Source: Lingula anatina (lineage: Eukaryota > Animalia > Brachiopoda). From it: DNA of 64,000 nucleotides. How positions within the stretch are numbered: position 1 is the stretch's first letter; every line of letters starts with the position of its first letter. The notes under the pieces were generated by a model, which saw nothing but the letters and a program-made list of their open reading frames with translations, made no database searches and was not told the origin of the DNA. The stretch is taken from NCBI GenBank assembly GCA_051362555.1, contig CM120649.1:19730567-19794566 (forward strand), given 5' to 3'. A program made the translations under genes and the position numbers. Of the stretch, positions 12,882 through 22,075 are shown piece by piece.

Positions 12882-15800
12882 ATGGCTAACAGAAGGCTTC
12901 TCGAGGCTGCACGGCATGGAGATATAAAGAGTTTACAGGAACTGCTGACTGCCGGGGAGTGCAACATCAATGTCCGGGACTGGGTAATAACTTAAATTAC
13001 TCTACAACTAGTCACTTCATTGTCAAATTATTAAGGACCCGCTATTGCATTTACGGAACAAGATGAAAATATTCATCTAATTATTACAAACGACTCATTT
13101 CAAATTTTGTTTAAGAGAGTGGCTACACGTAAAAGATCTTGAAGCTCACGCTGGAATAGATTAGTGAAACTCAATCACTCTAAACAATTTATGCTGTCAT
13201 TCATTTATTGTCCTATATTACAGTACGGGTATATTTATTGTAAATATATTCCAACAGATAACTAATGGTCTTTGTGACCTCCCTGTCAGCATGTACACAT
13301 TCCTCTGTACCCAGGGGCAGTTAGCCCAATCCCAAGGGCCCATGTACTAGTGCATCTGTGACGATAGAGTCTGCCAATATCAAGGACTGAAATTATTCAA
13401 TTTAATGGCTCAGGAGGAGTAAACATGAATTAAAATGTGAAAAGAATTAAGTGTCATCCACCCCCACCCCCAGCCACCAGTGACGGCTAAACCCCAAGGT
13501 GCACAGAAATTCCCAAGTGTCCATGCATGAATATAATTCTATCAGTGCCAAAATTCAATCGTCTAGGAGGAGAAAGCAAATATTACACTATAAAAAGAAT
13601 TAATAATAACCAACTACCCCCAGGGACACCCTAACCTCCAGTTGCAGTAAAGTTCCAAAGTGCTCTGATGATAGGTCTCACAATACCCAAAGTGCGATTT
13701 TACTCACTCATGGTCTAGGATGAAATACCAGAAACTGCAATTAAAAAAAATCAGAGTCACCTCCCCCTCCCTCCCCCCCCCCCCACCCAAACTACATCCC
13801 CGGGACAGTCCAACCCCCAGGGGCACGGAAAATCCTAAATGCCAATGCATGCAATCAAACCTAAAAAAACGCACCCCCTTCAAATGGACCTGGATCCGCC
13901 CCTGGTCTTTCTGTGATGTAAATGGTCTATGCTTAATCACATTCTATGAACATGTCCAAAGTATGGGTATATAAACCACTTCACTGGGCTGTCCGGTGTG
14001 GCCACACGGAATGTGTTCAGCTTCTCTTTTAACACTGGGAGGATACCAGTATACAGGATGAGGTGCATGTAGAATAGTCTAAGCACAGCATTATGGGTTC
14101 ATTTACACTTGGGCATGACTATATACAGTACTGTCCACAATTTAGTGCAGAATAGTCTATGGACAGAATAATTAATTGCTACATTAAGTTTATTTTTTGT
14201 TTATAGTATTTATTCCAATGCATGTTAGCGAACAAACATATTTTTTATTTCGAAATAAATTATCATTGTTTAATCACATTGTTTGTACATATCCACAGTA
14301 TGGATGGACACCACTTTACTTAGCTACCCTTGAAGGCCACACACAATGTGTCCAGCTCCTCCTCCAAAACGGGGCGGATACCAGTATACAGGATGAGGTG
14401 AGTGTGGAATAGTCTTAGCACAGCATTATGGCTTCATTTACACTTAGACAAGTAGGAACTGAGCGGGGTTTACAACCCACAAACAAATTCACAAACTCGC
14501 TTACAAAAGAGCAGAGTAAAAGAATTGCCAAAAGGAAAAAACATTAAAATTTTAATTAGAATTTTGACTAACTGAATCATTGTTTTTGAACTGGCCTCGA
14601 ACCCCACGCCAAGGGGAAGAGGGACAGCTTCCGAGGCCTGTCAAACTTTAAAAAAAACGGACCCCCTTCAAATGAACCTGGATCCCTTCTGGTATTTATG
14701 TGATATGAATGGTTTATGTTTAATTACATTATATGTACACAACCTAAGAATGGGTATATACACCACTTCACTGAGCTGTCCGGTGCGGCCACACGGAATG
14801 TGTTCAGCTTCTCCCTTAACATTAGGCGGATACTAGTATACAGGATGAGGTACATGCAAAATAGTCAAAGCATAGCATTATGGGTTCATTTACACTTGGG
14901 CACGACTATATACTGTCCACAATTTAATGCAGAATATTCTTTGGACAGAATAATTGCCACATTAAATTTATTTTGTGTTTATAGTATTTATTCCAATGCA
15001 TGTGAGGGAACAAACATGTTTTTTATTTCGAAATAAAGTATCATTGTTTAATCACATTGTTTGTACATATCCACAGTATGGACGGACACCACTTTACTTA
15101 GCTACCCTTGAAGGCCACACACAATGTGTCCAGCTTCTCCTCCAAAACGGGGCGGATGCCAATATACAGAATAAGGTGAGTGCAGAATAGTCTATGGACA
15201 TCATAATTGCTACAATTGCGTGCGACTACATATTTTCCTGCAAATTATGTGAAGAAGATGGTCGAGGTTTACATTTTCACAGCGATCTTTCTTTTTTTTA
15301 AATAAGTATTAATTTCAACAAATCTGTGGGAACAAAATTAATAAGAATTGAGTGGGGTTTATATGCACCGACGATCGATTGTTAGTTTTAGTTTATCATT
15401 GATTATTTCAAAGCATCTATGGAAATAGAAGTATTTCGTCAACATGAATGATCACGTATCATCGTGTTGTTTCTACTAATCTACAGGATGGGAGGACACC
15501 ACTTCACTGGGCTGCCGATAACGGCCACACACAATGTGTCCAGCTTCTCCTCCAACACAGGGCGGATGCAAATATACAGAATAAGGCGAGTGTAAAATAG
15601 TCTATGGACATCATAATTGTCACAATTGCGTGCGACTACATATTTTCCTGCAAATTATGTGAGGAAGATGGTCGAGGTTTACATTTTCACAGCGATCTTT
15701 CTTTTTTTTTTTTTTTTTTTTTAATAAGTATTAATTTCAATAAATCTGTGGGAACAAAATTAATAAGAATTGAGCGGGGTTTATATGCACCGACGATCGA

Positions 15801-21800: not shown

Positions 21801-22075
21801 ATTAAAGGTTTTTATATTTTCATATTGAAATTTTAAGCATACTGCATCGGTATCAATTGATTCCCCTTTGGGAAAATATCTTCGCATATTCTCCTATCAA
21901 ATTTGCACAATGTTTTGTATGTTTTTGTTTTACGTCAGGTCCAACAGAGTCTCCAACGTACGGGAATCTTCGGAATGCGCTTCGGGATGCACATGAACAA
22001 ATCGCATTTCTACGAGACGAGAACAGAGAGCTGCAGGCAAAAATCCGCCAAAACCTTCAACAACACGTAATTTGA
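12882..22075 (+). CDS. Ankyrin repeat - death-fold-like - TIR - coiled-coil protein (~595 aa if all intact exons are used)
   Basis: Exons: 12882-12983 ([14 protein letters not shown].., N-cap); seven 99-nt ankyrin exons at 14299-14397, 15077-15175, 15487-15585 (GC donor), 15909-16007, 16234-16332, 16650-16748 and 18143-18241; 19206-19295 (C-cap [14 protein letters not shown]); 20072-20288 (death-like); 20986-21130; 21256-21659 ([41 protein letters not shown]); 21939-22075 (coiled coil, TGA). All phases join in frame, 1788 nt in total. Confidence 0.88.
13962..18341 (+). repeat. Tandem array of ankyrin exon + flanking intron units, including degenerate pseudo-exons
   Basis: A shared acceptor context (tttgtacatatccacag) and donor context (gtgagtgcagaatagtct) recur at every unit. 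Degenerate copies lie at 13962-14062 and 14749-14849 (both 101 nt), 17972-18020 (3'-truncated) and ~18300-18341 (5'-truncated). Confidence 0.9.
16897..17852. mobile_element. piggyBac-like non-autonomous DNA transposon
   Basis: Perfect 25-bp TIR CACCCAAACCCAATATAGAGGTGCA with TTAA on both sides (16893-16896 and 17853-17856). No transposase ORF. Confidence 0.85.
18745..18882. mobile_element. Small MITE
   Basis: 16-bp TIR GTACCCTCTACCAGGG flanked by a 7-bp direct repeat TAGATCC. A related copy lies at ~47383-47526. Confidence 0.6.
21256..21659 (+). CDS. TIR domain exon of the ankyrin-TIR gene
   Basis: Box1 [10 protein letters not shown]-loop RDFHPG, and [17 protein letters not shown] followed by VIPVL. 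Confidence 0.93.

What the first reader, a model, noticed from the sequence alone, without database searches (positions are those of the whole stretch)
12882..22075. Candidate diversifying immune receptor: a 'natural DARPin' exon-cassette array fused to death-like and TIR domains
Seen: each internal ankyrin repeat is its own 99-nt, phase-0/0 exon. The seven intact repeats are R1 [34 protein letters not shown]2 [24 protein letters not shown]3 [24 protein letters not shown]4 [24 protein letters not shown]5 [24 protein letters not shown]6 [23 protein letters not shown] and R7 [23 protein letters not shown]. The [10 protein letters not shown] segment is invariant. Changes cluster at the beta-turn (xGx), at the residues after the AA of helix 1 (LE/DN/RN/SI/GN) and at the repeat end. 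Established: these are largely the surface positions randomised in DARPin libraries. Near-identical repeats with hypervariable surface sites also characterise fungal HET/NLR sensors and the one-repeat-per-exon LRR/TPR genes of Ectocarpus. Inference: a cytosolic sensor with N- and C-caps whose binding surface is re-dealt by exon duplication, loss, skipping or conversion and which signals through death/TIR domains. I know of no described animal ankyrin-TIR family with this cassette design, but could not search for one.
Basis: partly seen in the sequence, partly recalled or inferred. Interest (0 to 1): 0.9.

Follow-up and report, generated by a model that had tools for sequence, protein, structure and literature searches.

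The report
Brachiopod reshuffled ankyrin–death–TIR sensor family
This gene, whose only relatives found are in the brachiopod Lingula, strings together seven one-exon ankyrin repeats that carry the marks of recombination and differ mainly on their predicted binding face, followed by a predicted death-fold domain and a TIR domain; it likely belongs to a family of variable intracellular immune sensors, but no ligand or immune role has been tested.

Summary
The locus is a 13-exon, 595-codon open gene: N-cap, seven 99-nt phase-0 ankyrin exons, C-cap, a predicted death fold, a TLR-like TIR domain and a terminal helix. Four broken repeat copies lie in the introns.

New here: the two halves of each repeat have different histories (informative sites 91% and 79% compatible within sides, 33% across). 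This points to unequal crossover in the conserved helix-2 core.

All relatives found are Lingula anatina proteins (about 19 predicted loci, 0–14 repeats). Among 53 repeats, all distinct, the six most variable sites are ankyrin positions 2, 3, 5, 10, 13 and 14, the binding face. The family is transcribed and spliced.

Not shown: positive selection (significant against synonymous sites, not against introns), exon skipping, repeat-number polymorphism, any immune role.

The regime is known from fungal NLRs and brown-algal ROCO genes. I found no description of this NTPase-free ankyrin–death–TIR form in ten literature searches, but the two Gerdol surveys were unread. The scan had not noted this family before; it had noted a sea-urchin analogue.

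The parts
12882..12983 (+). Exon 1: start codon and ankyrin N-cap (34 aa)
   Evidence: Pfam Ank E 0.004; spliced reads from exon 1 to a repeat exon
13962..14061 (+). Degenerate repeat exon p0 (100 nt, out of register, stops in the repeat frame)
14299..14397 (+). Ankyrin repeat exon R1, 99 nt, phase 0/0
   Evidence: Pfam Ank E 2.3e-10
14749..14848 (+). Degenerate repeat exon p1; the p0+R1 block (13855-14439) and p1+R2 block (14641-15217) are an 88% identical duplication
15077..15175 (+). R2: 5' half like R1, 3' half and downstream intron like R3 (chimeric)
15487..15585 (+). R3, with a GC splice donor
15909..16007 (+). R4: upstream intron like R6, 3' end and downstream intron like R1
16234..16332 (+). 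R5
16650..16748 (+). R6
   Evidence: Pfam Ank E 4e-14
17972..18020 (+). 5' half of a repeat exon with intact acceptor, truncated inside the core
   Evidence: also covered by contigs of runs X1 and X3
18143..18241 (+). R7
18294..18345 (+). Degenerate 3' half of a repeat with donor
19206..19295 (+). C-cap exon (30 aa)
   Evidence: joints from repeat exons to it and from it to the next exon
20072..20288 (+). Death-fold exon 1 (72 codons + 1 nt)
   Evidence: fold inferred from a paralogue model
20986..21130 (+). Death-fold exon 2: last helix of the fold, one extra helix and a flexible linker
21256..21659 (+). TIR exon, TLR-like, with BB-loop proline and the conserved helix-C glutamate
   Evidence: Pfam TIR_2 E 4.7e-23; best PDB match TLR15 TIR E 2.3e-16
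21939..22072 (+). Last exon: long amphipathic helix (probable coiled coil) and stop
   Evidence: helix 491-533 in the paralogue model; weak CCDC92 hit E 0.009

Best explanation
This is an intact member of a multi-copy Lingula gene family that likely encodes variable cytosolic sensors: an ankyrin array predicted to bind targets on its concave face, fused to a predicted death fold, a TIR domain and a probable coiled coil. Shown: the exon design, the family, different repeat numbers between loci, variation concentrated at ankyrin positions 2, 3, 5, 10, 13 and 14, and discordant histories of the two halves of each repeat. Inferred: germline unequal crossover or conversion between misaligned copies resolves mostly in the near-identical helix-2 core (codons 14-23). 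The unit exchanged therefore runs core to core: the loop end of one repeat, the intron, and the beta-turn plus inner helix of the next, which is one finger of the binding face. Phase-0 boundaries keep gains and losses in frame, and failed events leave the broken copies. Inferred and untested: target binding clusters the protein, the death fold and TIR then nucleate a MyD88/IRAK-type signalling assembly, and the protein acts as receptor and adaptor in one chain without an NTPase switch.
For: Gene model open with consistent phases. Four-gamete compatibility 712 of 780 site pairs left of the core, 390 of 496 right, 428 of 1280 across; 0 of 5000 permutations as low. Upstream intron distance tracks the 5' exon half (Mantel r 0.89, P 0.017) but not the downstream intron (r -0.10). 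All 12 hits of a death-region profile among 1.84 billion representatives are L. anatina. About 19 predicted loci, six on one 212-kb contig. 53 of 53 clade-A repeats distinct; 52 distinct six-site signatures; identity 0.14-0.23 at the six sites versus 0.76-0.79 in the framework. A second clade has its own uniform framework and similar variable sites. Death fold: 14 of the top 15 Foldseek rows, best VIA Z 9.0 to the FADD death domain (rmsd 3.2 A, 89 aligned), Atlas first hit PF00531 at 0.81. TIR closest to TLR TIRs. Sense-strand spliced reads for the family. The same regime is described for fungal NLR ankyrin repeats (PMC4986451) and algal ROCO genes (PMC3341825).
Against: No ligand, immune-challenge or signalling data. 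Positive selection is not established: pairwise dN 0.31 versus dS 0.35 within the six library codons. By parsimony, 16 replacement steps in 14.7 sites exceed exon synonymous steps (5 in 16.0; P 0.008) but not intron steps (96 in 122; P 0.15). The variable positions are those variable in ankyrins generally. The 3' exon half does not track the downstream intron by distance (r 0.00), so breakpoints are not confined to the core. Death-fold scores are below firm thresholds (Foldseek best E 0.21; Z 9 for a helical bundle; no Pfam Death hit) and come from a paralogue. Fast divergence among paralogous repeats is a general pattern (PMC5120217 abstract). Most RNA reads are 90-99% alike, so expression of this exact allele is not shown. 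Paralogue sequences are unverified RefSeq predictions.
Confidence: 0.6

Rival explanations
1. Selectively unremarkable tandem turnover: a lineage-specific ankyrin-death-TIR adaptor family whose arrays expand and contract by ordinary unequal crossover. Surface sites drift because only the framework is constrained, and there is no receptor repertoire.
For: Excess over introns not significant (P 0.15); overall dN/dS about 0.9; crossovers naturally fall in the most identical stretch (core p-distance 0.035); broken copies and fragmentary paralogues are common; PMC5120217 abstract.
Against: Closely related repeat pairs differ in the 5' half only by replacement changes (R1/R2 one, R4/R6 four; codon table); left-half excess over intron P 0.013; 52 of 53 six-site signatures distinct; death plus TIR output.
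Confidence: 0.22
2. Dscam-like or somatic diversification: one locus yields many arrays per animal by combinatorial skipping of the phase-0 exons or by somatic rearrangement.
For: All repeat exons are phase 0/0, and R3 has a GC donor. Reads join R2-like and R6-like ends to the C-cap and exon 1 to an R6-like exon, in frame. One paralogue has RefSeq isoforms differing by exactly three repeats.
Against: Those reads carry many differences from this locus and include back-joints (R4, R6, R7 to R3) that fit paralogues with another repeat order. The isoform pair's skipped joint is ambiguous over 19 identical residues. There are no clusters of mutually exclusive exons and no inverted copies in the window.
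Confidence: 0.1
3. Allorecognition or guard sensor in the manner of fungal het genes: the variable face reads polymorphic self proteins (or their modification) and triggers cell death, possibly through TIR NADase activity.
For: Same repeat regime as Podospora NLRs; death fold; the helix-C glutamate is kept here and in most paralogues.
Against: TLR TIRs have the same glutamate in the alignment, so it is not diagnostic. It is lost in five paralogues. The TIR is closer to TLRs than to NADase TIRs (E 1e-16 versus 1e-5).
Confidence: 0.08

Closest known systems
Fungal NLRs with highly conserved ankyrin repeats (Podospora PNP_UDP/NACHT/ANK; Dyrka et al. 2014, PMC4986451; passages and section 17 read)
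   Same: Near-identical repeats, variable sites on inner helices and beta-hairpins, recombination between repeats, multigene family. That paper puts such conserved repeats at 0.8% of metazoan ANK/TPR/WD repeats.
   Different: No NACHT or NB-ARC domain here; sensor is N-terminal and effectors C-terminal; repeats are separate exons; internal similarity 0.84, just under their 0.85 bar; repeat-number polymorphism and selection are shown there, not here.
[quoted passage not shown] 2012, PMC3341825, parts 2-4 of 7 read; Teng et al. 2024, PMC11378527, abstract and section 15 read)
   Same: One repeat per exon, dead repeat exons in introns, clustered paralogues with different repeat numbers, intragenic recombination.
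   Different: Ankyrin rather than LRR/TPR; animal; death and TIR domains instead of Roc-COR or NB-ARC; no inverted repeat copies seen here; alternative splicing reported there, unproven here.
MyD88 (death-TIR adaptor) and TLR TIR domains
   Same: Death fold followed by a linker and TIR; BB-loop proline kept.
   Different: Extra ankyrin array and C-terminal helix; TIR closer to TLR15/1/2/6 than to MyD88; death fold too divergent for Pfam; multi-copy and lineage-restricted.
ANKDD1A-type ankyrin-death proteins and CARD-ANK adaptors (Atlas neighbours)
   Same: Ankyrin array joined to a death-fold domain.
   Different: The cluster names and the Pfam families shown give no TIR; similarity is feature or structure level only (score 0.84 or less, TM about 0.5).
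DARPin / ANK-N5C libraries (PMC4308713, PMC8683736; passages read)
   Same: N-cap, uniform internal repeats, C-cap; variation at positions 2, 3, 5, 10, 13; the paralogue model matches a DARPin at rmsd 1.0 A over 219 columns.
   Different: Synthetic; position 33 is randomised there and conserved here; an analogy, not a relationship.
Predicted L. anatina proteins XP_013388856.1, XP_013378972.1, XP_013414964.1 and about 16 more loci
   Same: Same family and architecture (TIR 68% and 64%, death exon 82%).
   Different: Carry only automatic names (tankyrase-like, secG, uncharacterized); none is a near-identical copy of this gene.

Membership tests
Ankyrin repeat (PF00023) | 33-residue repeat above the Pfam cut-off | tested here: met
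   R1 40.6 bits, R6 52.3 bits versus cut-off 21.1
TIR domain | Pfam TIR/TIR_2 above cut-off | tested here: met
   82.4 and 54.9 bits; PDB TLR TIR matches
Death-fold superfamily | Helical death fold | tested here: inconclusive
   Top structural matches are nearly all death folds, but best E 0.21 and Z 9.0; paralogue model; subfamily (DD, DED, PYD) not resolved
Death domain PF00531 | Pfam Death match by sequence | tested here: not met
   No hit for the two exons or for 9 aligned members
NLR / STAND receptors | Central NACHT or NB-ARC NTPase | tested here: not met
   No room for one in the 595-codon model; none in the Pfam annotation of paralogues
Fungal-type highly conserved repeat sensors | Internal repeat similarity of 85% or more over 100 aa | tested here: inconclusive
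   0.84 here; 0.77-0.86 in ten paralogous proteins; my measure approximates T-reks
Fungal-type highly conserved repeat sensors | Repeat-number polymorphism between individuals | tested here: inconclusive
   No contig of four DNA runs spans the array
Fungal-type highly conserved repeat sensors | Positive selection on concave-face sites | tested here: inconclusive
   P 0.008 versus synonymous sites, P 0.15 versus introns; ratio 0.9 pairwise
Exon-shuffling repeat receptors (Ectocarpus type) | One repeat per equal-length exon with dead copies in introns | tested here: met
   shown for this locus only, as no paralogue DNA was available
Exon-shuffling repeat receptors (Ectocarpus type) | Recombination within the repeat region | tested here: met
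Exon-shuffling repeat receptors (Ectocarpus type) | Alternative splicing of repeat exons | tested here: inconclusive
   Joints confounded by paralogues; isoform joint ambiguous
Toll-like receptors | LRR ectodomain and transmembrane helix | tested here: not met
   Ankyrin, not LRR; every part of the model is accounted for by soluble domains; no transmembrane predictor was run
MyD88 orthologues | Death-TIR only, TIR nearest MyD88 | tested here: not met
   TIR E 2e-16 to TLR15 versus 2e-7 to MyD88; extra domains
ecTIR-DC families of Gerdol et al. 2017 | Family architectures defined in that paper | not testable with these tools
   Definitions not seen; the TIAMMAt supplementary table lost its column headings; Gerdol 2018 not held
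TIR NADases (SARM1, plant, bacterial) | Catalytic glutamate plus measured NAD+ cleavage | tested here: inconclusive
   Glutamate present but shared with TLR TIRs; activity not testable here

The most novel reading that the evidence does not exclude
Brachiopods have their own variable-receptor system of natural DARPins. About twenty or more loci re-deal single binding fingers by core-to-core recombination under pathogen-driven selection, so each animal carries, and perhaps splices, its own repertoire. Each array is wired directly to a death-TIR signalling module with no NTPase. This would be an animal counterpart of fungal and brown-algal diversifying sensors on a scaffold not described for animal immunity in the papers I could search.
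Probability: 0.3. Interest if true: 0.88.

Novelty: new variant of a known kind. Interest (0 to 1): 0.66.

Why it matters
How animals without adaptive immunity diversify recognition is a standing question. If this family is what it looks like, it adds an ankyrin-based cytosolic solution in a little-studied phylum and shows convergence with fungi and brown algae. It is small and directly testable: long-read haplotypes, isoform sequencing and a forced-oligomerisation assay would each settle a step. The core-to-core exchange also gives a concrete route by which one binding finger can move between repeats without harming the fold.

Tried and rejected
No whole genome is held for this window, so paralogue exon structure and nucleotide-level selection across the family could not be tested.

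Sequence search for the death region: Pfam gave no Death hit and PDB gave only weak unrelated hits.

No RNA holder was listed among the indexed runs. Raw-read RNA runs were laid instead (4 of 9 listed).

DNA contigs (4 of 10 holders laid): none spans the array. Summed contig depth over ankyrin bins is about 6-50 times the level of single contigs outside the array, but the tool states this is no copy number, so it is not used as evidence.

Exon skipping from RNA joints was rejected as proof because the reads differ from the locus and back-joints occur (15 of 79 joint rows shown). The RefSeq X1/X2 pair was rejected as proof because of a 19-residue ambiguity.

Assembly artefact was rejected: repeats differ by 6-20 nt with distinct introns, and run X1 has eight pieces of 308-641 nt matching with 0-2 differences.

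Domain swapping between paralogues is suggested by different nearest neighbours for the death region and the TIR, but branch support is weak and no one-clade test was run.

NF-kB-like motifs: 9 matches at 3 places in the window, not above chance (18 of 100 shuffles).

Literature: 10 searches. None listed a paper on this family. Searches returned nothing. No complex prediction was run.
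Full report
Observation. Reading 12000-23500 and translating candidate exons gave a 13-exon model. It joins into 1785 nt, 595 codons and a stop, with intron phases 0 (nine times), 1, 2, 1. All acceptors are CAG; all donors are GT except R3 (GC). Four degenerate copies lie in introns: two 100-nt copies with stops, a 5' half and a 3' half. No further copy occurs in the 64-kb window on either strand. Pfam confirms ankyrin and TIR but gives no Death hit.

Relatives. The death-region exon found 3 proteins among 38 candidates, a paralogue's C-terminal part found 9 among 3145, and the TIR exon 3 among 133. A profile of the death region against 1.84 billion representatives found 12. 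Together they make about 19 predicted loci, six on one 212-kb contig. Some are fragments, and all are automatic predictions. The window's organism is therefore inferred to be Lingula or a close relative. Absence elsewhere may reflect thin sampling of brachiopods. None of the hits is a near-identical copy (best: death exon 82%, TIR 68%). Near-identical DNA for the TIR exon, the last exon or both is present in the four laid runs, next to copies a few percent divergent.

Domains. A model of a paralogue's 117-residue middle region (pLDDT 86, six helices) has no Foldseek match at E 0.001. However, 14 of the top 15 rows are death-fold proteins. In the wide VIA search 10 of the top 12 are death folds, best FADD death domain at Z 9.0, rmsd 3.2 A, 89 aligned. 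The tool warns that Z under about 13 can be unspecific for helical bundles. The Atlas first hit is a PF00531 cluster at 0.81, a lead only. I take the death fold as probable. A full-length paralogue model (pLDDT 88, pTM 0.62) shows the capped array running almost directly into the death fold, then a disordered linker, the TIR and a long terminal helix. Its array matches a DARPin at rmsd 1.0 A. The TIR is closest to TLR15, TLR1, TLR6 and TLR2 and keeps the BB-loop proline.

Where the variation lies. In 53 clade-A repeats (46 from RefSeq proteins, 7 from the window; two near-duplicate proteins dropped; picked by my regular expression, which misses some repeats) all sequences differ. The six most variable exon positions are 1, 12, 11, 3, 33 and 8. 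These are ankyrin positions 3, 14, 13, 5, 2 and 10. PMC4308713 (passages) randomised positions 2, 3, 5, 10, 13 and 33 and places them on one binding surface. It chose five of them for their high entropy in natural ankyrins, so the match is expected in part. Identity is 0.14-0.23 at the six sites and 0.76-0.79 elsewhere, almost the same within and between loci, and 52 of 53 six-site signatures are distinct. Twelve repeats of a second clade have a different, equally uniform framework, which fits concerted evolution within clades.

How the array changes. Intron flanks reveal chimeras: R1 and R2 share the upstream intron (5% different) but not the downstream one; R2 and R3 share the downstream intron (5%) but not the upstream one (37%); R4 and R6 share upstream, R5 and R6 downstream. 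Informative sites are compatible in 712 of 780 pairs on the left of the core, 390 of 496 on the right and 428 of 1280 across it; none of 5000 permutations was as low. The core (codons 14-23) is 96.5% identical between copies, the natural place for crossover. Against a single clean breakpoint: the 3' exon half did not track the downstream intron by distance (r 0.00), and that intron aligns poorly for R1 and R7. The inference is germline unequal crossover or conversion exchanging core-to-core units, each holding one beta-hairpin and the next inner helix.

Selection. I fixed six library positions in advance from memory (2, 3, 5, 13, 14, 33). Pairwise counts gave dN 0.31 and dS 0.35 in those codons, and 0.13 versus 0.15 overall. 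Parsimony on separate left and right trees gave 16 replacement steps in 14.7 sites, 5 synonymous steps in 16.0 sites (P 0.008) and 96 intron steps in 122 sites (P 0.15; left half alone P 0.013). Seven short sequences cannot settle this: suggestive only.

Expression. In 4 of 9 listed RNA runs (6-25% of each read), exon reads in the three stranded libraries fit a + strand transcript. Run X18 shows joints at the predicted R7/C-cap (13 reads), C-cap/death and death/TIR boundaries. The joints between the two death exons and from TIR to the last exon were not among the 15 of 79 rows shown. Few reads are 99% or more alike (34-83 of 1120-4861 per run, and much of the laid depth is on intronic dispersed repeats). 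So the family is expressed, but this allele is not singled out. Joints from R2-like and R6-like ends to the C-cap, from exon 1 to an R6-like exon, and back-joints to R3 keep the frame in the seven cases checked. They fit paralogues with other repeat orders as well as skipping. The RefSeq pair differing by three repeats is ambiguous over 19 residues.

Mechanism. Most likely a variable cytosolic sensor with built-in adaptor function (0.6). Rivals: neutral turnover of an adaptor family (0.22), splicing or somatic diversification (0.1), allorecognition or NADase death (0.08). Ligand binding, clustering and downstream signalling are inferred from established properties of ankyrin, death and TIR domains (recalled knowledge), not tested.

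Comparison with what is known. [quoted passage not shown] It is not an NLR, TLR or MyD88 orthologue. Ten searches listed no paper on this family. Passages of PMC8195603, PMC6321704, PMC5094078 and PMC8662601 did not describe it. In the PMC8662601 supplement (part 8 of 8) the family columns had no headings. The Lingula immune survey of Gerdol et al. 2018 is not held and Gerdol et al. 2017 was seen only as a reference. Either may already list ankyrin-TIR proteins, and the architecture is visible in public Pfam annotation. That one-repeat-per-exon ankyrin genes are common in animals is recalled, not verified (one search found nothing). The Atlas shows an oomycete ankyrin cluster named 'putative TIR domain-containing' and ankyrin-death clusters in chordates and arthropods as leads.

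Verdict. A real, intact gene in an apparently undescribed Lingula family, with good sequence evidence for half-repeat recombination and binding-face variation. New variant of a known kind; interest 0.66.

Noticed in passing
window 16900-17830, 18746-18870, 19441-19825, 20600-20720: Dispersed high-copy repeats inside the gene's introns; 19441-19825 draws by far the most contigs and RNA reads, probably a MITE or SINE-like element.
   Followed up: no
window 12649-12883: A 125-nt tandem duplication ending at the start codon (93% over 110 nt).
   Followed up: no
window 7866-7877 and 10462-10472: Palindromic NF-kB-like sites 5 kb and 2.4 kb upstream, next to a duplicated 120-nt segment; overall count not above chance.
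   Followed up: partly
window 7131-7589 (-): Threonine-rich, mucin-like open frame of 152 aa built from 9-15 nt repeats.
   Followed up: no
window 29274-30733 (-): Exons of an aldo-keto reductase gene (Pfam PF00248).
   Followed up: partly
window 36747-38732 (+): A 661-codon open frame with no Pfam or PDB match of note.
   Followed up: partly
window 47951-48914 (-): Exons of an alpha/beta hydrolase (Abhydrolase_3 E 1e-4).
   Followed up: partly
window 50316-50696 (+): Tc1/mariner-type DDE_3 transposase remnant (E 1.2e-9).
   Followed up: partly
window 52174-54543 (+): Long C2H2 zinc-finger exon, 789 codons (domain named from the sequence pattern).
   Followed up: no
window 60041-60481 (+): First exon of a TMEM164 homologue (PDB 9lw1, E 4.4e-20).
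   Followed up: partly
window 33469-35245: Perfect 120-nt inverted repeats 1.5 kb apart enclosing a 21-nt tandem array; likely a non-autonomous DNA transposon.
   Followed up: no
window 26247-26839: A 44-nt minisatellite of about 13 copies.
   Followed up: no
P0006, P0007, P0014, P0018, P0019: Paralogues whose TIR lacks the conserved helix-C glutamate; P0012, P0020, P0003 and P0015 lack a TIR altogether. Possible decoys or regulators, or incomplete models.
   Followed up: no
P0021: A 1619-aa model that fuses transposase-like, SET-like and reverse-transcriptase-like stretches (recognised by eye, not scanned) to the family's C-terminal half; probably a mis-prediction.
   Followed up: no
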